Shown: positions 4,432 to 42,393 of the stretch, piece after piece | How the letters are laid out: each line of letters begins with the position of its first letter | Numbering within the stretch: position 1 is the stretch's first letter | Sequence record: MN850614.1 | DNA length: 64,000 bases | From: Escherichia phage adrianh | Strand: one strand, 5' to 3' | Program-made: the position numbers and the translations under genes | The notes under the pieces: generated by a model | What the model was told of the DNA's origin: nothing | Seen by the model: the letters and a program-made list of their open reading frames with translations, nothing else | Database searches by the model: none

Positions 4432-4640
4432 AATGACCTCAAAGTTATATTAAATTTTGTATTACGTTGAGTATAAAAATAAGCTATAACACCTGACTTG
4501 TCAACAGATTTTATAGCTTATTTGGCAGATTTTTTATAAGGCTACTGCCATCCTTCCATACATTACCTAACCAAGCCGAACATCACACAACCAGACCGAG
4601 CCGCACCCCGCCTTATTAAAAGACCCTGTTTAAAGACCTT

Positions 4641-4666
4641 TTAAAAAGGAGCCTCCGAAGAGGCTG
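4641..4666 (-). terminator. Rho-independent terminator (minus strand)
   Basis: GAGCCTC-CGAA-GAGGCT hairpin; on the minus strand it is followed by a T-run (plus-strand AAAAA at 4643-4647). Confidence 0.55.
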
Positions 4667-4676
4667 CCTAGTCAAC

Positions 4677-5117
4677 TTAGAAAGGTTTTCTACGTTGCTT
4701 GTTAATGTTAGCTTTCATAGCAGCTAAATGGTTTTGCTGTTCAATTAGTCGTGAACGTTCTTGATGGCTAAGTGCCATAGTGTTCACATTCTCAATTGCT
4801 TGAGTGGCTTGCTTTAAAGCTCGACCAATCTTACCAGACATTTTACGTTTTGCAATAGTTGCTTGATGTTTAGGCTCAACCACACGATAACCAACACCCA
4901 TTGAAGCAACCAGATAAATCTTCTCTTCTTTAAGAAGCTTTTCAATAAACTTCTCAAGTCGGTTTAGTCGTGTAAGTGCATAAGCCTTCATTTCATCTTC
5001 GTACTTAACAATGTCACCTTGATAAGTTGGCTTCACAATACCTAAGAAGGTATCCATCTCAGGATGTGATACAGTGTCACCGTAACTAAACTTTGCTGCT
5101 AATGCTTTTGTATTCAT
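4677..5117 (-). CDS. Hypothetical protein
   Basis: 146 aa ORF. Confidence 0.5.
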   Translation of the reverse strand: MNTKALAAKFSYGDTVSHPEMDTFLGIVKPTYQGDIVKYEDEMKAYALTRLNRLEKFIEKLLKEEKIYLVASMGVGYRVVEPKHQATIAKRKMSGKIGRALKQATQAIENVNTMALSHQERSRLIEQQNHLAAMKANINKQRRKPF

Positions 5118-5119
5118 AA

Positions 5120-5725
<606 letters not shown>

Positions 5726-6133
5726 TTAGTTGATTATTAAGTTGTTTGTAAAGAACCCTCAACAGAAGACTCTTTAGAAACTTGGTAGATTTTTAACGTG
5801 GCTACTACCATCCACCCATACCTTACCTTACATTACCCGACCTCACAGAACACTACCGTACCAAACCGTACCGGGCTACACATCACTTAAAAACCCTCTT
5901 AGAAGACTCTTAAGTGATGCTGGTGAGTACCCGTTGGTTTATGATGCTCAGTATACTCACCAAATTTTCTATGTCAACAACTTTTATAAAAAAGTTCTGA
6001 TAGCTATATGCGTCACGAAACAAAAGATTGTAAACAAGACACCCATTGCAAAAGATGTGTCCAAAAGCTTACTTGTGATGTAAGACAATACAAAGACAAC
6101 CAGTATAAACAAAATGACTGTACTGAACATAGT

Positions 6134-13806: not shown

Positions 13807-14550
13807 ATGAGTAATATTATCGCATTTACTGGAAAGGCACGTTCTGGAAAAGACACCTCATGTTCTATTGTGAAGAACATCTTAGAGGATGAGTACGGCT
13901 ACAATGTTGCTGTAATGGCCTTTGCAGACAACCTTAAACTGTCTGCATCAAAGATATTTGACCTGACTTGGAATGACCTGTATGGTGAAACTAAAGAGAC
14001 TCCACAGGTATTTGACTTATCATATCCTGAACTGATGTTTAAAGTTACGGAAGCTATGGAGTTCACCTTCAGAGATGAACGTTACCATATGGACTTCAAG
14101 CTTATGTCAGAGTTAACCGGACGATTAATCATGGAGCTTAAGAAGGTTGCTAAACCGACTCTATTGACACGTCTGGGGTTTAGCAAAAAGTATAAATTCT
14201 CATCAAGACAAATTCAACAGGTTTGGGGCACTGAAGTTGTCCGTAAAGTAATGGGCGACAAGTTCTGGTCTAAAGACCTTGAAAAAAGAATGGTTAGATT
14301 CCATGAAATGTGCTCACTTAGAAATCAATATGGTTTTGTATTAATCAGTGATTTAAGATTTGACTCTGAAGCTGAATGGCTGAGTAGATTTGCACACCAA
14401 ACTATTGAAGTAAAAAGAGACAATGTGGACAAAGTTTCATCACATGTTTCAGAAAATGGGATTTCTACAAAATATGAGCGTGACATTATTCATAATAATG
14501 GTACTCTTGCAGACCTTGAGAACAAGCTAAGAGCCATCATTAAAGTTTAA
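13807..14550 (+). CDS. Deoxynucleoside monophosphate kinase
   Basis: 247 aa; N-terminal P-loop IIAFTGKARSGKDT resembling phage dNMP kinases. Confidence 0.6.
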   Translation: MSNIIAFTGKARSGKDTSCSIVKNILEDEYGYNVAVMAFADNLKLSASKIFDLTWNDLYGETKETPQVFDLSYPELMFKVTEAMEFTFRDERYHMDFKLMSELTGRLIMELKKVAKPTLLTRLGFSKKYKFSSRQIQQVWGTEVVRKVMGDKFWSKDLEKRMVRFHEMCSLRNQYGFVLISDLRFDSEAEWLSRFAHQTIEVKRDNVDKVSSHVSENGISTKYERDIIHNNGTLADLENKLRAIIKV

Positions 14551-18131: not shown

Positions 18132-19178
18132 ATGGAGAAGTACACATTAACAAAACTTCCCGATTCAGTTACACATGTCTTTATTGACTCTGACAGTATT
18201 GCCTATAAAGGTGCTTGTGTAGTTGAGAAAGCAAAGTATAAATATGTCAATAAACTCACAGCAGAAGAGTCTGAGCCATTTGATAATGCGAAAGATGCCG
18301 CAAGATGGTTAGCAGACCAGAGAATCTTTGTGGAAGAGCTTGGTCTGACATTTGATGAAGATGAATGGGAAAGACAGACTTGGAAAGAAGCTAAGAGTGA
18401 AAAAGAAGCTATCATGGCTACTCAACAGGTTCTTCAGGAATGGCTTAAGGTTGTTGGTAAAGATAGAACTTGGGTGGGTTATTTAACAGAGAAAGGTGTG
18501 CATAAACATAAAGACATTAAAGGTCTTGAGCACCAATATCAAGGCAACCGTAAAGATGCTGTCACACCAACACACTTAGTTGCTTGTCGCGAGTATCTTC
18601 TGTCAAGGCCAGAGTTCAAGCTAATTCTTGATGGATTCGAAGCTGACTCTATCGTTATTGCTAAAGCTGAAAAGATGGGTAAAAAGGCTGCCTTGATGAG
18701 TATTGATAAAGACCTTCGCCAAGCTGAAGGGACTTACTGCATTGATATGACCTATGAAAAGTCACCTTTGATTTTCATTGCTGATAACAACGTTGGTGAA
18801 ATTTGGGATTGCCCAATAAAATCGACACCCAAAGCTAAGAAGACAGTTGGGGTAGGTTTTAAATTTCTTTGCTATCAAGCCGTGGCTGGTGATAATGCGG
18901 ATAATTATTTCGGTTTAAAGGGTGTTGGTAAGGTTACTATAATGAAAGCCCTTGAAGGTAAAACCACTTACAAAGAGTGTCTTGATGCAATTTATGAGCT
19001 TTATGCTAAGAAAGAGTCATACACTTATGTCTCGTGGGATGGTCAAACAATTACCAGAACACCTTTAGAGTTAATGCAGCAACACTTTTTCTTAGCTTAT
19101 CAGGAAAGAAATAAGAAAGACGATTTCACTTTTGATAAGTATGGATGGACACCAAATGTTAACCCAACAAACTCTTAA
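18132..19178 (+). CDS. 5'-3' exonuclease / flap endonuclease
   Basis: 348 aa; helix-hairpin-helix segment AGDNADNYFGLKGVGKVT typical of FEN/RNase H family. Confidence 0.6.
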   Translation: MEKYTLTKLPDSVTHVFIDSDSIAYKGACVVEKAKYKYVNKLTAEESEPFDNAKDAARWLADQRIFVEELGLTFDEDEWERQTWKEAKSEKEAIMATQQVLQEWLKVVGKDRTWVGYLTEKGVHKHKDIKGLEHQYQGNRKDAVTPTHLVACREYLLSRPEFKLILDGFEADSIVIAKAEKMGKKAALMSIDKDLRQAEGTYCIDMTYEKSPLIFIADNNVGEIWDCPIKSTPKAKKTVGVGFKFLCYQAVAGDNADNYFGLKGVGKVTIMKALEGKTTYKECLDAIYELYAKKESYTYVSWDGQTITRTPLELMQQHFFLAYQERNKKDDFTFDKYGWTPNVNPTNS

Positions 19179-19656
19179 AGAATACCTGCACTATGACCCC
19201 GAAACAGGGGTCTTTACTTGGTTAGTTAATAGAAAAGGTAAGGCCAAAGCTGGCTCAGTAGCGGGTCTTAAACATCATAGTGGTTATATCTACATAAAAC
19301 TCTTCGGGAAAAGATATGCAGCACACAGACTGGCATTCTTGTATATGAAAGGATACCTACCAAAATTTGTTGACCATAAGAATGGTATCAGGCACGACAA
19401 CTGGTTCGACAATTTGAGAGAGTGTAGCAGGTCAGATAATAACTGTAATGCAGCCAAAAGAAGAGATAATAAATCTGGTGTGAAGGGTGTATATTACCAT
19501 AAGCAAAGAGGTAGATGGGCTGCACAAGTCAAGCATAATAAAGTTTGCTATCATCTAGGTTTATTTGACTCTATCGCTGAGGCTGAATTAGTTGTCAAAA
19601 AGAAAAGAGAAGAACTCCATAAAGAGTTTACAAATCACGGAGAAGCTTATGAATGA
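19132..19656 (+). mobile_element. HNH homing endonuclease gene (174 aa)
   Basis: N-terminal YDPETGVFTWL segment shared with the ORF at 9041; HNH-like FVDHKNGIRHDNWFDNLRECSRSDNNCN. Confidence 0.65.
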
Positions 19657-20153
19657 GAAAAATAAAAGGTTTTGGCAATTGTCCTGAATATGGACATTGG
19701 GTTTCACTATGTGGTGAAGTTGACCCAGCAAAGCACTTTGGTTTTGTCTACCTAGTGTACTGCAAAAAGACTGGACAGTACTATTTGGGTAAGAAGCAGC
19801 TTAACAGTGTGACCAAAAGAAAAGTTGCTGGGAAGACTCGGAAGAAGGTAGTCACTAAGGAGAGTGATTGGATGACTTACGAGACTTCTTCTGAGTATAT
19901 TAAAAAAGATATTGATAGCTTTGGAAAAGAATTTTTTGACTTTTACATTATTCAAACCTACTACACAAAAGGTGGCCTAGTCTATGGTGAAGCAAACCTT
20001 CAACATAAATTCGATGTAATGACAAAAAGGATTGACTCGAAGCTCAGACTCTTCTACAATGCCAATATTGCAGCAATTAAGTTTATTACTAAAGAAACTT
20101 ATGAAGATGCTGAAAAAAGAATCCATAAGGTAATGAAAGCAAATTGTGCTTGA
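19653..20153 (+). mobile_element. GIY-YIG-like endonuclease gene (166 aa)
   Basis: FVYLVYCKKTGQYYLGKK matches the GIY...YIG spacing. Confidence 0.4.
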
Positions 20154-30219: not shown

Positions 30220-30232
30220 ACAGATACTATAA

Positions 30233-30260
30233 GGGAACCTTTACAGTTCCCTTTTTATTT
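30233..30260 (+). terminator. Rho-independent terminator
   Basis: GGGAAC ... GTTCCC hairpin followed by TTTTT. Confidence 0.6.
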
Positions 30261-30270
30261 TGGAGATGAT

Positions 30271-30786
30271 ATGTATCTGTCAAACCTAAAACGTTCTGCT
30301 GCAATGTCAGTGTTAAGACTTAGCTTTGAGGAACGTCAAGAGTTCATTGACTCCCACCAATACGACCCCTCAAACTCCAATCACATGATTCTCTGGAATC
30401 GTGAAAGTACTCGTGAAAGAGTACTATTCCGTTATTACCCACACTACACTATAGATAACCTGTATGAATGTTTTGTTGTGAAGAACACCATTGCAGTGCT
30501 CAATAAGCTTTGTAGATACACAGGTAGTCAATCCTTCACATTAGGCCACCACAAACCTGTTACAAAGGGTGGTGAGCATCACTGTGCAAACTGGTTTATC
30601 CAAACTAAATCTGATAATCAGAAGCAAGGAGATAGCCTTCTAAACATCCCTAAGATGACCTATGAAGAGCAAGAGAAATATATCAAAAATAATATGCCAG
30701 ATGTGCTTGACAACAACTATACAGATTTGGCAATATCTCTCCTGTTAAAGTTTGAGACAGTTTATAGGGCAACTTACAATGGCTAA
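30271..30786 (+). CDS. HNH-like nuclease (His-Me finger)
   Basis: 171 aa; GHHKPVTKGGEHHCANW resembles an HNH core. Confidence 0.4.
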   Translation: MYLSNLKRSAAMSVLRLSFEERQEFIDSHQYDPSNSNHMILWNRESTRERVLFRYYPHYTIDNLYECFVVKNTIAVLNKLCRYTGSQSFTLGHHKPVTKGGEHHCANWFIQTKSDNQKQGDSLLNIPKMTYEEQEKYIKNNMPDVLDNNYTDLAISLLLKFETVYRATYNG

Positions 30787-31057
30787 AGAGAAGTGGGAGA
30801 TTTTACCACTAGTCAGTGAGGGTGGTAATGGCTGTGAAATGTACATGATACGTGGGCATGTTCCAGAACCAATTGCACTTGAGATGGTAAACAATTTTAC
30901 AGATGGCTCTTACAAAGATTTAGGAGAACCAACTGTCAAGCAACAATGGGTTAAACCTGTACCAGACAGCACAGGTAACTGTAGTGTACTTTATCACGTT
31001 GTAGACCCTGCAAAATGCAAATCTGCAATGGCAGTAACAAACGTAACTTTTGATTGA
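30779..31057 (+). CDS. Hypothetical protein
   Basis: Start at ATG 30779 overlapping the upstream stop. Confidence 0.4.
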   Translation: MAKEKWEILPLVSEGGNGCEMYMIRGHVPEPIALEMVNNFTDGSYKDLGEPTVKQQWVKPVPDSTGNCSVLYHVVDPAKCKSAMAVTNVTFD

Positions 31058-31067
31058 GAGAAAAACT

Positions 31068-31949
31068 ATGAAGACATCTATTCGTGTTATAATTCATTCA
31101 CCGACAAAAGGGTCTCATGAAGAAGAGTTTAACATCATCCAGTTCCCTTCTGGTGAGATTGGTGGACACTTTTCACAAGAGCTTGTTGATTTTACTGCTT
31201 ATGCAGCATCATCTATCAACAATGTGATTATGATTGTAAAAGGTTATGATAAGGACACATTGTTTGCTGTGGCACTCGCTAAAGAAGCAATTGATGATTT
31301 AATTCCTCATGATTATGCCTTAAAGACTGTCATCTTTTACTACTTACCAAATGCACGATATGACCGTCACATGTTTAAAGGTGATGCAGCAGCTTTGAAG
31401 GTTTTTGCTAAACAGGTTAATGCAATGGGGTTTGGTGCAGTATGTGCAGTTGACCCTCACAGCTATGTACCAGATAACCTGTTTGACTGCTTCCAAAGTA
31501 TTCCTCAAAATGAAATTGCAGTCCACTATGCAAATGACCCACTGGTTGATTACTTAGTAGCCCCAGATGCAGGTGCTGCTAAGAAGATTGCAGAGACTGC
31601 TAAAGAGGTGGATAAACCATATATCACAATGTCTAAGGTGCGCAACCTTAAAACTGGTGAAATTACTGGTATGCGAATCCTTGATGATGTTGATTTGACC
31701 GATAAAACTGTTATGATTCTCGACGACATCTGTGATGGCGGTCGAACCTTCATAGAAGCAGCTAAACATCTTCGTGAAGCAGGTGCAAAACGTGTGGAAC
31801 TCTATGTAACACATGGTATCTTCTCTAAAGGGGTTGAAAACCTTCTTGACAATGGTATTGACCACATCTACACTACAAACTCTTTAGGGGAAGCTAAAGA
31901 CCGTGGTTTAACACATTATGGTCAAGTTACTGTAGCAAACCTTGATTAA
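31068..31949 (+). CDS. Ribose-phosphate pyrophosphokinase family protein (PRPP-synthetase-like)
   Basis: PRPP-synthetase-like segment MILDDICDGGRTFIEAAKHLREAGAKRVELYVTHGIFS; start placed at ATG 31068 with GAGAGAAAA RBS. Confidence 0.8.
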   Translation: MKTSIRVIIHSPTKGSHEEEFNIIQFPSGEIGGHFSQELVDFTAYAASSINNVIMIVKGYDKDTLFAVALAKEAIDDLIPHDYALKTVIFYYLPNARYDRHMFKGDAAALKVFAKQVNAMGFGAVCAVDPHSYVPDNLFDCFQSIPQNEIAVHYANDPLVDYLVAPDAGAAKKIAETAKEVDKPYITMSKVRNLKTGEITGMRILDDVDLTDKTVMILDDICDGGRTFIEAAKHLREAGAKRVELYVTHGIFSKGVENLLDNGIDHIYTTNSLGEAKDRGLTHYGQVTVANLD

Positions 31950-31957
31950 AACTTTAT

Positions 31958-31981
31958 AGGGGGCTTTCAAGCCCCATTTTG
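31958..31981 (+). terminator. Terminator-like hairpin
   Basis: GGGGC-TTTCAA-GCCCC hairpin followed by ATTTT. Confidence 0.45.
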
Positions 31982-31995
31982 AGAGAGATTAAAAG

Positions 31996-33777
31996 ATGAC
32001 TAAATCACTTTATGCAGTACCAGCAGGTTTAAACGCAGATGCTTACAAATCTGGTCATGTTTACCAGTACCCTAGTGCAACAGATTACTTGATGTTTAAC
32101 CTGACACCACGTAGTGATAAATGGTTTAACAGCCCTTTAGCAATTGATGGTGTAGTGGCTTTTGGTATTCAACGTTTTGTTAAAGATTACTTAATAGACC
32201 ACTGGAACGCCACCTTCTTTGAACGTGACAAAAAAGAAGCAATTGATGAAATCTTAGAAGTCATGAACGGTGTTCTGGGTAAAGATGCTATTGGTCGAGA
32301 ACATTGGGAAGCACTTCACGACTTAGGTTATCTACCAGTTGAAGTATACGCTGTAGAAGAAGGTACAGTTGTCCCTATGCGTGTTCCAATGATTGTATTC
32401 CAGAACACTGTTTCAGGTTTCCATTGGGTAGCGGGATATCTGGAAGATGCTTTCTCTGCTGAGATTTGGAAGGCTTGTACCATTGCAACTATTGCATTGC
32501 ACTACAAACGTATCTGTAAGAAGTGGTCTGACCTTACTTGTGACAACGACTTGCATTTACCTTATCAGTGCCATGACTTTGCTATGCGTGGTATGTCCGG
32601 CTTTACCGATGACGCATTTAACGCTGTAGGTCACTTAACCAGCTTTAAAGGGACTGATAGCTTCCCTGCTGTGTATACAGCTAAACGCATCTATGGGCAG
32701 TCCTATCCAATTTCCGATATTGGTGGTTCTGTACCAGCCACTGAACACTCTGTCATGTGTGCAAACATTGCTTGGGAAGGTGGGAATGAGTTAATTGAAG
32801 AAGAAAGACGCTTTAAAGGTGAGTTACAAACCTTCCGTCGTTTCTTAACAGAAACTTACCCAACTGGTATTGTAAGTATTGTTTCAGACACTTATAATTT
32901 CTGGAGAACTGTATCAGTGATACTCCCAGAACTCCGTAAAGAGATTATGGAACGTGATGGCAAACTGGTAATTCGTCCTGACTCTGGCGACCCTGTACAT
33001 ATTGTCACAGGTTATAAAGCAATCCACTTAGAGTGTGCTAAAAAGGCTTATTACGAACACCTAAGCAAGCTTGAAGCCAGCGACACAATGTTGAATACTG
33101 TTCTGAACATGAAGCTTGAAAACATCAACTACGGCATTGCTGGGTGGCTACTGTCAGAAGGTTACGAAATGGTTGTTGACAGAGAAGACTTTGAAGTTGC
33201 TGATACAGTGATGTTGAAAAATGCTTATATGGTTGGTTCTGCAAACGTTGTAACACGTCCTGTAGCAGAGATTGATGGAGCTATCAAGACACTGTATAAC
33301 ATCTTTGGGGGAACTATCAACTCTAAAGGTTTTAAAGTACTGGATGAGCACATCGGACTTATTTATGGTGACTCTATCACGTTGGAACGTGCAAACGAAA
33401 TCTTGAAGCGTTTGTATGAAATGGGTTTTGCAAGCTCTAACGTAGTGTTTGGTGTAGGCTCTTACACTTACCAGTACATGACTCGTGACACCTTTGCATT
33501 TGCTGTCAAAGCAACTCTTGCAAGCATTGGTGGTAAAGAGATTATGCTTGCAAAAGACCCTAAAACAGATAGTGGTGTTAAGAAATCTGCCTTTGGTGGT
33601 GTAGCACCTATGTGGGATGGTGATAAGCTGAAAGCTGTAGATGGCTATGGATTCCAGAGTTTTGCAGATGTACTTGACCACCAAGCTTGTGCTTTACGTT
33701 TAGTCTTTAGCGACTCTGAGCAGTTCGGTTATACAACTCTTGGAGATATTCGAAATAATATTGACAAGCAGCTTTAA
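31996..33777 (+). CDS. Nicotinamide phosphoribosyltransferase family protein (NAMPT-like)
   Basis: 593 aa; NAMPT-like motifs NADAYKSGHVYQYP, CHDFAMRGMSG, FKGTDS, VSDTYN, IRPDSGDP. Confidence 0.85.
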   Translation: MTKSLYAVPAGLNADAYKSGHVYQYPSATDYLMFNLTPRSDKWFNSPLAIDGVVAFGIQRFVKDYLIDHWNATFFERDKKEAIDEILEVMNGVLGKDAIGREHWEALHDLGYLPVEVYAVEEGTVVPMRVPMIVFQNTVSGFHWVAGYLEDAFSAEIWKACTIATIALHYKRICKKWSDLTCDNDLHLPYQCHDFAMRGMSGFTDDAFNAVGHLTSFKGTDSFPAVYTAKRIYGQSYPISDIGGSVPATEHSVMCANIAWEGGNELIEEERRFKGELQTFRRFLTETYPTGIVSIVSDTYNFWRTVSVILPELRKEIMERDGKLVIRPDSGDPVHIVTGYKAIHLECAKKAYYEHLSKLEASDTMLNTVLNMKLENINYGIAGWLLSEGYEMVVDREDFEVADTVMLKNAYMVGSANVVTRPVAEIDGAIKTLYNIFGGTINSKGFKVLDEHIGLIYGDSITLERANEILKRLYEMGFASSNVVFGVGSYTYQYMTRDTFAFAVKATLASIGGKEIMLAKDPKTDSGVKKSAFGGVAPMWDGDKLKAVDGYGFQSFADVLDHQACALRLVFSDSEQFGYTTLGDIRNNIDKQL

Positions 33778-33791
33778 AAGTATATGATAAG

Positions 33792-33814
33792 AGGCTCCTA
33801 CGGGAGCCTTTTTA
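33792..33814 (+). terminator. Rho-independent terminator
   Basis: GGCTCC / GGAGCC hairpin followed by TTTTT. Confidence 0.6.
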
Positions 33815-41607: not shown

Positions 41608-42393
41608 ATGGGTATTGTAAAAATCATCAATGGTGATATCTTTGCAGCATTTGATAAAGGTAAGTTTGATGTCATCGGTCACGGTTGCAACTGTATGAAC
41701 TTAATGGGCGCAGGTATCGCTGACAAGATTTCCAAACTTTACCCAAAAGCATATGAGACCGACACAGAAGTTTATATGTATGCAGGTGGTATAGGACACA
41801 AACCCTGTGAAAATTTACTGGGTAATTTCTCTGTAGCACGTTTAAAACAAGGTCGTATAGCTAACCTTTACACTCAGCTTAAGACTGGTAAAGATGCCCG
41901 ATACAGTGCTTTAGAGTCATCTTTGAAGCAGCTTAACAGATACTGTGAAGTCAATCAGTTGAAGAAAGTAGGGTTACCTATGATTGGTGCAGGTATCGGT
42001 GGGCTAGACCCTCAAGCCGTCACAGTTATCATTAATCAGGTGATGAAGAGTGTAGATGTGTATCTATATGTCTATGAAGGAGAGATGTACCACAAGTTAT
42101 GCTCAGGTTGGAAGAACTACTGTGAACCAGAATACTTTGCAGGTGTAGCAGTGTTCACGGATAATGCAGTTACCCTCTTCAGACGAAGAAAGGGTAAGAT
42201 ACATCAAAGTAACCCTCCGGTTGAAAAGATGTCTCTAAGTAACGCTCTAGTTACCCACCTGTCGAAGAGCAATCACAGAATTGCAGTAACATTTGGCAGT
42301 GATGCAGATGCTTATATCTATGCAAGAACTGATGAGGATATCGAGTTAATCTTCTCTTCACCAGAGCTTACCTTCTTAGACGCAAAGAACTAA
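41608..42393 (+). CDS. Macro-domain protein (ADP-ribose binding/processing)
   Basis: 261 aa; N-terminal macro-domain-like segment INGDIF ... GHGCNCMNLMGAGIA. Confidence 0.55.
   Translation: MGIVKIINGDIFAAFDKGKFDVIGHGCNCMNLMGAGIADKISKLYPKAYETDTEVYMYAGGIGHKPCENLLGNFSVARLKQGRIANLYTQLKTGKDARYSALESSLKQLNRYCEVNQLKKVGLPMIGAGIGGLDPQAVTVIINQVMKSVDVYLYVYEGEMYHKLCSGWKNYCEPEYFAGVAVFTDNAVTLFRRRKGKIHQSNPPVEKMSLSNALVTHLSKSNHRIAVTFGSDADAYIYARTDEDIELIFSSPELTFLDAKN

What the first reader, a model, noticed from the sequence alone, without database searches (positions are those of the whole stretch)
31068..33777. Adjacent PRPP-synthetase-like and NAMPT-like genes: candidate NAD+ reconstitution pathway
A ribose-phosphate pyrophosphokinase homolog (DDICDGGRT motif) sits directly upstream of a nicotinamide phosphoribosyltransferase homolog (ATDSYK-like, FKGTDS, VSDTYN, IRPDSGDP). 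This pair matches the reported phage NAD+ reconstitution pathway in which a PRPP-synthetase homolog pyrophosphorylates ADP-ribose and a NAMPT homolog joins it to nicotinamide, countering NAD+-depleting host defences. No NMN adenylyltransferase is seen, which argues against the classical NAMPT/NMNAT salvage route.
Basis: partly seen in the sequence, partly recalled or inferred. Interest (0 to 1): 0.75.

Follow-up and report, generated by a model that had tools for sequence, protein, structure and literature searches.

The report
Known phage NAD+ rebuilding operon (NARP1)

Summary

The window is a Felixounavirus genome, 95-96% nt identical to wV8-like phages and colinear with phage Bas63 (JohannRWettstein). 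Bas63 genes 79-80 are the operon in which Osterman et al. discovered NAD+ reconstitution pathway 1 (NARP1). The window's proteins are their syntenic orthologues: Namat 98% and Adps 78% identical.

- The wV8 proteins, which share the window's Adps allele type, are listed in that paper's Adps and Namat tables.
- The Adps catalytic lysine is present (K190, matching SpβL1 K162).
- The Namat catalytic residues are present.
- The Namat-specific adenine-clamp motif GSxΦxΦxΦTRD is present (G488-D498), as is the Bas63-type K42-W43 loop.
- No NMN adenylyltransferase was found.

No enzymology was done on this allele.

Side observations:
- The 5' 500 nt of adps is a sharply bounded mosaic segment.
- Namat carries an Ounavirinae-specific ~85-aa inserted mini-domain with no known fold match.
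- Relatives carry an HNH homing endonuclease between the two genes.
- A Macro-domain protein homologous to the NARP1-associated phosphatase Adpp lies unlinked, 7.8 kb downstream.

The parts
31068..31949 (+). adps: ADP-ribose pyrophosphate synthetase (PRPP-synthetase homologue), 293 aa
   Evidence: 78% identical (228/293) to Bas63_0079, with the C-terminal 113 aa 94-98% and the N-terminal 180 aa 55-75% identical. 99.3% identical to phage HMD-P10. PHROG 619 E 7.9e-97. It scores higher against validated or validated-type Adps than against a canonical enzyme: 100 bits to SpβL1 Adps, 119 bits to the Quinn (Gary-type) Adps, 60 bits to E. coli Prs. K190 aligns with SpβL1 K162. It falls far below the cut-offs of all NCBIfam Prs equivalog models.
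31960..31975 (+). Intergenic stem-loop GGGGCT-TTCA-AGCCCC followed by ATTTTG, between adps and namat
   Evidence: RNAfold gives -12.7 kcal/mol for the intergenic segment. The stem is conserved in Bas63 with a different loop (TGAA). In relatives that carry an HNH endonuclease gene at this position the hairpin is absent. Its function (attenuator or RNA stabiliser) is inferred only.
31996..33777 (+). namat: nicotinamide ADP-ribose transferase (NAMPT homologue), 593 aa
   Evidence: 98% identical (581/593) to Bas63_0080. Best solved relative is the SpβL1 Namat crystal structure 9w5w/9w5x, E 5e-128. The AF2 model (pLDDT 93) superposes on 9w5x with TM 0.95. Catalytic and binding residues are conserved: D15, Y17, F195, R198, D221, H251, R327, D329. 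The SCH motif G488-SYTYQYMTR-D498 and the SCL K42-W43 are present.
33789..33812 (+). Intrinsic-terminator-like hairpin closing the operon
   Evidence: 10-bp stem with 5 GC pairs and a T-run; RNAfold -16.6 kcal/mol.
30231..30253 (+). Upstream terminator-like hairpin; the nearest upstream transcription boundary
   Evidence: Between this hairpin and adps lie two small genes of unknown function: 30271-30786 (PHROG 3500) and 30779-31057 (PHROG 4726). They overlap each other by 8 nt, and the second ends 10 nt before adps. They may therefore be co-transcribed with adps (inference).

Best explanation
The two genes are the NARP1 anti-defence operon of a Felixounavirus. When a host NADase defence (SIR2-HerA/Nezha, type I Thoeris, DSR2, SEFIR, Kongming and similar) cleaves NAD+ into ADP-ribose and nicotinamide, the pathway runs in two steps:

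1. Adps (31068-31949) uses ATP to put a pyrophosphate on the free ribose of ADP-ribose, giving ADPR-PP.
2. Namat (31996-33777) displaces that pyrophosphate with nicotinamide, giving NAD+ directly without an NMN intermediate.

What is shown here: orthology and synteny with the experimentally validated Bas63 operon, and conservation of the validated catalytic and specificity residues. What is inferred: that this allele has the same activities and the same phenotype.
For: Genus and synteny:
- The window is a Felixounavirus, 95-96% nt identical to wV8-like phages, with 256 phage records carrying the region. It is colinear with Bas63 positions 22787-85605.
- Bas63 genes 79-80 sit in the same position, between the nrdG block and rIIA.

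Published function of the Bas63 operon:
- Deleting genes 79-80 gave about 20-fold fewer plaques on SIR2-HerA.
- The deletion abolished NAD+ restoration and ADPR-PP (m/z 720.010) formation.
- The phenotype was independent of host pncC and nadR.

Identity to validated proteins:
- Namat is 98% and Adps 78% identical to the Bas63 proteins.
- The wV8 Adps, which has the same N-terminal allele type as the window, and the wV8 Namat are listed in Osterman's Tables S1/S2 as Namat-associated Adps and Adps-associated Namat.

Conserved residues:
- Adps K190 corresponds to SpβL1 K162, whose K162A mutant is inactive.
- Namat R327 corresponds to R306, D221 to D215, F195 to F189, and the catalytic His is H251.
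- The Lys-Trp SCL is identical to that of Bas63.

Other support:
- The closest structure is SpβL1 Namat, TM 0.95.
- Adps fails all canonical Prs equivalog cut-offs, for example 103 bits against a cut-off of 296. No Pribosyltran_N domain is detected, and the ribose-5-phosphate loop reads DGGRT instead of DTGGT.
- No NMNAT was found.
Against: - No biochemistry or genetics exists for this exact allele.
- The N-terminal ~165 aa of Adps is only 55-75% identical to the Bas63 protein, which was tested in vivo. The in vitro enzymology was done on SpβL1 proteins, which are 31-35% (Adps) and 47% (Namat) identical to the window's.
- Namat-type enzymes still make NMN from PRPP in vitro when ADPR-PP is absent, so some classical NAMPT activity in vivo is not excluded.
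- About 23 kb of this phage genome lies outside the window. In Bas63 that part holds structural genes.
Confidence: 0.93

Rival explanations
1. Classical salvage. Protein 1 is a true PRPP synthetase and protein 2 a true NAMPT, together making NMN that a host enzyme (NadR) or PncC-dependent route turns into NAD+.
For: Database names and Pfam/NCBIfam domains point this way. Namat enzymes can make NMN from PRPP in vitro.
Against: - The orthologous Bas63 operon works in a ΔpncC ΔnadR host and produces ADPR-PP in vivo.
- SpβL1 Adps gave no product in the canonical Prs-type control reaction but did pyrophosphorylate ADP-ribose.
- The window's Adps is far below the Prs equivalog cut-offs.
- Namat carries the adenine clamp, which canonical NAMPT lacks according to the published comparison.
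Confidence: 0.04
2. NARP2-type pathway: NAMPT plus a phage NMN adenylyltransferase encoded elsewhere in the genome.
For: About 23 kb of the genome was not seen, and NAMPT homologues do occur in NARP2 phages.
Against: - No NMNAT-type domain appears in any scanned window ORF, nor in the full annotation of colinear Bas63.
- No phage in the published survey carries both NARP1 and NARP2, and NARP2 Nampt genes are not Adps-associated.
- The unseen part corresponds to the structural module.
Confidence: 0.01
3. General nucleotide-precursor supply: extra PRPP for phage DNA synthesis, suggested by the neighbouring nrd genes, with no role against defence.
For: The operon lies in the nucleotide-metabolism block nrdA/B/D/G.
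Against: In Bas63 the operon's metabolites appear only when an NADase defence is active, and its deletion phenotype shows up on the defence-carrying host.
Confidence: 0.02

Closest known systems
NARP1 operon of Escherichia phage JohannRWettstein (Bas63), genes bas63_0079/0080 (Osterman et al., 'Phages reconstitute NAD+ to counter bacterial immunity', bioRxiv 10.1101/2024.02.11.579819)
   Same: Same genus, same genomic position and same gene order. Protein lengths are identical (293 and 593 aa). Namat is 98% identical, including both lineage-specific insertions and the K-W selectivity loop. The Adps C-terminal domain is 94-98% identical. The intergenic stem is conserved.
   Different: The first ~500 nt of adps is a different allele, 61-73% nt identity against ~95% in the flanks. 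The window carries the wV8-type N-terminal domain, whereas Bas63 and Felix O1 carry the other type.
NARP1 of Bacillus phage SPbetaL1: the biochemically characterised Adps and Namat, with Namat crystal structures 9w5w/9w5x (NAR 2026, PMC12774641)
   Same: Adps followed by Namat in one operon. The catalytic Lys, the Namat catalytic core, the SCH motif and the overall fold (TM 0.95) are all conserved.
   Different: Only 31-35% (Adps) and 47% (Namat) identical. In SPbetaL1 the SCL stacking residue is Arg40; here it is Lys42-Trp43. S190 is replaced by A196 and A362 by S460. The window's Namat has two insertions (about residues 258-272 and 340-427) that SPbetaL1 lacks.
NARP1-AP of Vibrio phage Gary/Quinn (Adps-Adpp-Namat; bioRxiv 10.64898/2026.01.28.702374)
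   Same: Core Adps (38% identical) and Namat. The window also encodes a homologue of the Macro-domain phosphatase Adpp, 28-29% identical over the whole Adpp.
   Different: Here the Macro gene is not in the operon. It lies 7.8 kb and about 15 genes downstream and carries an extra ~95-aa C-terminal region. No Felixounavirus appears in that paper's table of NARP1-associated Macro genes.
NARP2 / KVP40 NadV-NatV and canonical NAMPT (human, Xanthomonas, H. ducreyi NadV 9ke8)
   Same: NAMPT fold and nicotinamide/ribose-phosphate catalytic core.
   Different: No NMNAT partner. The gene is Adps-associated. It carries the aromatic adenine clamp motif, which according to the published comparison is absent from NAMPT.

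Membership tests
NARP1 (Adps + Namat) | Adps is a PRPP-synthetase homologue that falls with phage Adps rather than canonical Prs | tested here: met
   78% identical to Bas63 Adps. PHROG 619 E 8e-97. BLASTP gives 119 and 100 bits to the Quinn (Gary-type) and SpβL1 Adps against 60 bits to E. coli Prs. The same allele type (wV8) is listed in Osterman Table S1. No full phylogeny was built here.
NARP1 (Adps + Namat) | A Namat homologue lies within ten genes of adps | tested here: met
   It is the next gene, 46 nt downstream on the same strand.
NARP1 (Adps + Namat) | Adps active-site lysine (SpβL1 K162; the K162A mutant is inactive) | tested here: met
   K190 in MSKVRN aligns with K162 in GHKQRN.
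NARP1 (Adps + Namat) | Namat catalytic core (SpβL1 F189, R192, D215, catalytic His, R306, D308) | tested here: met
   F195, R198, D221, H251, R327 and D329 are invariant in the alignment.
NARP1 (Namat versus Nampt) | [quoted passage not shown] | tested here: met
   G488-S-Y-T-Y-Q-Y-M-T-R-D498, with Y490 and Y494.
NARP1 (Namat versus Nampt) | Selectivity-clamp loop: third residue Arg, Lys or Tyr, with a stacking residue following | tested here: met
   S40-D41-K42-W43, identical to Bas63 Namat, which was modelled with NAD+ in PMC12774641.
NARP1 (Adps + Namat) | Enzymatic activities: ADPR + ATP gives ADPR-PP; ADPR-PP + nicotinamide gives NAD+ | not testable with these tools
   Shown for the SpβL1 proteins in vitro and for the Bas63 operon in vivo. 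Not shown for this allele.
NARP1 (Adps + Namat) | Rescues the phage from NAD+-depleting defence | not testable with these tools
   Shown for the Bas63 Δ79-80 mutant on SIR2-HerA.
Canonical class I PRPP synthetase (Prs) | Reaches the curated equivalog scores, has the N-terminal Pribosyltran_N domain and has the DTxGT ribose-5-phosphate loop | tested here: not met
   NCBIfam equivalog and subfamily scores are 44-103 bits against cut-offs of 296-536; only the broad TIGR01251 model is just passed, 120 against 113. Pfam finds no Pribosyltran_N. The loop reads D-G-G-R-T, against D-T-G-G-T in E. coli.
NARP2 (Nampt + Nmnat) | An NMN adenylyltransferase encoded in the same genome | tested here: not met
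   No such domain appears in 37 scanned window ORFs or in the Bas63 annotation. About 23 kb of this genome was not seen.
NARP1-AP (extended with the Adpp phosphatase) | A Macro-domain gene within two genes of the operon | tested here: not met
   Five upstream neighbours and three downstream neighbours have no Macro domain. A Macro protein exists, but 7.8 kb away at 41608-42393.
RyDEP-extended NARP1 | A RyR-domain glycosidase gene inside the operon | tested here: not met
   None of the neighbours scanned matches a RyR-type domain.

The most novel reading that the evidence does not exclude
Felixounaviruses may run the extended, aRES-resistant version of the pathway (NARP1-AP) in trans. The unlinked 261-aa Macro-domain protein at 41608-42393 is a full-length homologue of the ADPR-1''-phosphate phosphatase Adpp. 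It could convert ADPR-1''P into the ADP-ribose that Adps needs. The published survey would have missed it because it looked only within two genes of the operon. Related minor possibilities: the swapped N-terminal Adps domain and the Ounavirinae-specific 85-aa Namat mini-domain may be adaptations to still unknown host counter-measures.
Probability: 0.15. Interest if true: 0.45.

Novelty: already known. Interest (0 to 1): 0.15.

Why it matters
NARP1 explains how about 4% of sequenced phages survive the many bacterial defences that kill by NAD+ depletion, through two enzymatic reactions unknown before 2024. Finding it here adds no new biology, because this genus is where the pathway was discovered and the window's allele type is already catalogued. 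It does confirm that a reader working from raw sequence can recognise the system. It also suggests that this phage should plate on hosts carrying SIR2-HerA, type I Thoeris, DSR2 or Kongming. The side observations (two Adps N-terminal alleles, the Namat insertion domain, the unlinked Adpp-like Macro gene) are small, testable extensions.

Tried and rejected
- **Accessory genes near the operon.** I looked for known NARP1 accessory genes next to the operon. Pfam and PHROG scans of five upstream and three downstream neighbours found no Macro and no RyR domain; all are families of unknown function.
- **NMNAT.** I looked for an NMNAT in 37 further ORFs and found none.
- **Macro protein as an anti-DarT enzyme.** The window's Macro protein matches the PADLOC DarG model at 2e-13. 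The bona fide operon-embedded Adpp-type protein of phage Quinn matches the same model equally well, at 6e-12. This match therefore does not discriminate between the two functions.
- **Specificity of the Macro-NARP1 link.** This was not supported. The family occurs in 2786 phage records, including T4-like phages, and those proteins are more similar to Adpp than the Felixounavirus one is.
- **Adps structure.** No paper or PDB entry with an Adps structure was found, so substrate-pocket residues could not be checked against a structure.
- **Locating Bas63.** The accession was found by stepping through the alphabetically ordered BASEL accessions.
Full report
**1. What is in the sequence**

Two same-strand ORFs occupy the stated interval. 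The first runs 31068-31949. Its ATG at 31068 gives 293 aa, the same length and start as the annotated Bas63 gene; the mechanical ORF list begins at an upstream TTG at 31050. The second runs 31996-33777 and encodes 593 aa.

All quoted motifs are present. Protein 1 has DDICDGGRT at residues 219-227. Protein 2 has ADAYK (14-18), FKGTDS (217-222), VSDTYN (296-301) and IRPDSGDP (326-333).

Profile searches confirm the families:
- Protein 1: Pfam Pribosyltran and Pribosyl_synth, TIGR01251 at 7.7e-35, PHROG 619 at 7.9e-97.
- Protein 2: Pfam NAPRTase/NAMPT_N, NF006629 at 1.4e-140, PHROG 448 at 1.2e-201.

**2. Where the window comes from**

Megablast of 31000-33800 finds 256 phage records, almost all Felixounavirus. 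The best hits are 95-96% identical: SLAM_phiST56, PK6, Shy and wV8. The whole window is colinear with Escherichia phage JohannRWettstein (Bas63, MZ501086), positions 22787-85605, at about 89-96% identity over most segments, with a few indels.

In both genomes the pair lies after the nrdA/B/D/G block and five small genes of unknown function, and before three small genes and rIIA/rIIB.

**3. Why this settles the interpretation**

Bas63 genes 79-80 are the operon in which Osterman et al. discovered NAD+ reconstitution pathway 1. Their findings were:
- Deleting the operon gave about 20-fold fewer plaques on SIR2-HerA and abolished NAD+ recovery.
- The deletion removed two infection-specific metabolites, ADPR-PP (m/z 720.010) and ADPR-cP.
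- The phenotype persisted in a ΔpncC ΔnadR host, which excludes an NMN route.
- With the SpβL1 homologues, Adps converted ADPR plus ATP to ADPR-PP.
- Namat converted ADPR-PP plus nicotinamide to NAD+ and preferred ADPR-PP over PRPP.
- The K162A (Adps) and R306G (Namat) mutants were inactive.

The window's Namat is 581/593 (98%) identical to Bas63_0080 and its Adps 228/293 (78%) identical to Bas63_0079. The paper's supplementary tables list the wV8 Adps as a Namat-associated Adps homologue; it begins MKTSIRVTVHSPTKG..., the same allele type as the window. The wV8 and Felix O1 Namat are listed as Adps-associated.

**4. Residue-level checks**

I fetched SpβL1 (OQ921341) and aligned its proteins with those of the window.
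- **Adps:** K190 (MSKVRN) aligns with SpβL1 K162. The F-x-x-G-E segment (F26, G29, E30) is invariant across the Adps sequences and E. coli Prs. From general knowledge of class I Prs this corresponds to the ATP-binding flag region.
- **Namat, nicotinamide and ribose-phosphate core:** D15, Y17, F195, R198, D221, A248, H251, R327, D329 and G458-D459 match the SpβL1 residues described in PMC12774641. Two conservative differences are S190 to A196 and A362 to S460.
- **Namat, selectivity-clamp helix:** the Namat-specific signature GSxΦxΦxΦTRD is present as G488-SYTYQYMTR-D498, with the adenine-stacking aromatics Y490 and Y494.
- **Namat, selectivity-clamp loop:** it reads S40-D41-K42-W43. This is the Lys-then-stacking-residue variant the authors describe for Bas63.

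An AlphaFold2 model built on 36 homologues (pLDDT 93, pTM 0.91) has the SpβL1 Namat crystal structures as its best PDB matches (TM 0.95 on the target). These rank ahead of H. ducreyi NadV and mammalian NAMPT.

**5. Not a canonical Prs, not NARP2**

Adps scores 44-103 bits against NCBIfam Prs equivalog and subfamily models whose cut-offs are 296-536. It only just passes the broad TIGR01251 model. Pfam finds no Pribosyltran_N domain. The ribose-5-phosphate loop reads DGGRT where E. coli Prs has DTGGT.

By BLASTP, Adps scores 119 bits against the Quinn (Gary-type) Adps, 100 bits against SpβL1 Adps and 60 bits against E. coli Prs.

Pfam scans of 37 other window ORFs, including nearly all unassigned ORFs of 130 aa or more, found no NMN adenylyltransferase. 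The complete Bas63 annotation has none either. The roughly 23 kb of this genome outside the window corresponds to the structural module. According to the published survey, no phage carries both NARP1 and NARP2.

**6. Anatomy of the locus**

- A terminator-like hairpin lies at 30231-30253.
- Two small genes of unknown function follow, at 30271-30786 and 30779-31057. They overlap each other by 8 nt, and the second ends 10 nt before adps.
- adps and namat come next, then a strong terminator-like hairpin at 33789-33812.
- Both genes are preceded by a GAGAGA-type ribosome-binding sequence.
- The 46-nt spacer between adps and namat holds a 6-bp GC-rich stem-loop at 31960-31975 followed by ATTTTG. 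Bas63 conserves the stem but has a different loop. Whether it attenuates transcription or stabilises the RNA is not known.

**7. Mechanism**

Shown by orthology and residue conservation; the activities themselves are inferred for this allele. A host NADase defence produces ADP-ribose and nicotinamide. Adps transfers pyrophosphate from ATP to the 1'' position of ADP-ribose. Namat then couples nicotinamide to ADPR-PP, releasing pyrophosphate and regenerating NAD+. Because the substrates exist only after NAD+ has been cleaved, the pathway is silent in defence-free cells.

I put 0.93 on this explanation. The rivals are classical PRPP/NMN salvage, NARP2 and general PRPP supply, and together they get about 0.07.

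**8. Novelty**

Already known. The family, the mechanism, the genus and even the allele type are in the literature.

**9. Things seen on the way**

(a) *Mosaic adps.* Nucleotide identity to Bas63 drops from about 95% to 61-73% exactly at the adps start codon and recovers near 31560. The N-terminal ~165 aa is therefore a swapped allele. At least 154 phage records carry an Adps 90% or more identical to the window's and 94 carry one 60-80% identical. The latter group mixes other Ounavirinae genera with Felixounaviruses that have the Bas63-type N-terminal allele, such as KEP2; Felix O1 also has that allele.

(c) *Homing endonuclease.* Many relatives carry a ~490-nt HNH endonuclease gene precisely between adps and namat, replacing the hairpin.

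(d) *Unlinked Macro-domain protein.* ORF 41608-42393 (261 aa, Bas63_0095 'putative phosphatase') has a Macro domain (PF01661, 6.9e-8). It is 28-29% identical over the full length of the Adpp phosphatase of Vibrio phages Gary and Quinn, with pairwise E of 5e-14 and 1e-14. That enzyme sits inside their NARP1 operons and converts ADPR-1''P, the product of the aRES defence, into ADPR. No Felixounavirus is in that study's table, which looked only within two genes of the operon. However, this Macro family occurs in 2786 phage records, including T4-like phages, whose proteins are closer to Adpp than the Felixounavirus one is. A functional link to NARP1 is therefore only a hypothesis, at about 0.15.

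(e) *Trigger and antidote together.* The phage also encodes a dNMP kinase at 13807-14550 (PF21448). This is the class of phage enzyme that triggers the NAD+-depleting Kongming system, which NARP1 neutralises.

Noticed in passing
window 31062-31560 (5' part of adps): Nucleotide identity to Bas63 falls from ~95% to 61-73% exactly at the adps start codon and recovers at about 31560. The N-terminal ~165 aa of Adps is a swapped allele. wV8 and the window carry one type; Bas63 and Felix O1 carry the other.
   Followed up: partly
[not shown]
   Followed up: yes
window 41608-42393 (+): A 261-aa Macro-domain protein (PF01661 7e-8; nearest solved relatives are OARD1/TARG1-type macro domains; also matches the PADLOC DarG model), homologous at 28-29% identity to the NARP1-associated ADPR-1''P phosphatase Adpp of Vibrio phages Gary and Quinn. 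It is unlinked to the operon (7.8 kb downstream) and has an extra ~95-aa C-terminal region. The family is widespread in phages, including T4-like phages.
   Followed up: partly
window 31950-31995; locus L007 (PP886228) 1459-1950: Many Felixounavirus relatives carry an HNH homing endonuclease gene inserted exactly between adps and namat, replacing the intergenic hairpin present in the window and in Bas63.
   Followed up: partly
window 13807-14550 (+): A deoxynucleotide monophosphate kinase (PF21448, 2e-21). This is the type of phage enzyme reported to trigger the NAD+-depleting Kongming defence, which NARP1 counteracts, so trigger and antidote are in the same genome.
   Followed up: no
window 19132-20153; 4597-5879; 27137: Mobile-element differences from Bas63. 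The window has an HNH+AP2 endonuclease (19132-19656), lying in a short insertion relative to Bas63, next to a SegE-type GIY-YIG endonuclease (19653-20153). It also has a 1.3-kb insert (4597-5879) with two ORFs of unknown function. The nrdD intron and homing endonuclease of Bas63 are absent from the window.
   Followed up: partly
window 30271-30786 (+): The 171-aa protein two genes upstream of adps (PHROG 3500, unknown function) has a weak HNH-endonuclease-like match (PHROG 2214, 8e-5, residues 59-124). It may be co-transcribed with the operon.
   Followed up: no
search results: Records labelled 'Campylobacter phage A132' and 'Staphylococcus phage SA1' carry this Felixounavirus operon at ~93% identity. 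Their host labels look inconsistent with the sequence.
   Followed up: no
proteins P0068-P0119 (alignment A3): Chromosomal 496-aa homologues in Klebsiella, Cronobacter, Phytobacter, Kosakonia and Erwinia (~47% identical) carry the Namat-type GS[YF]TYQY[NH]TRD motif. This fits the reported bacterial NARP1 homologues. Their neighbourhoods were not examined.
   Followed up: no
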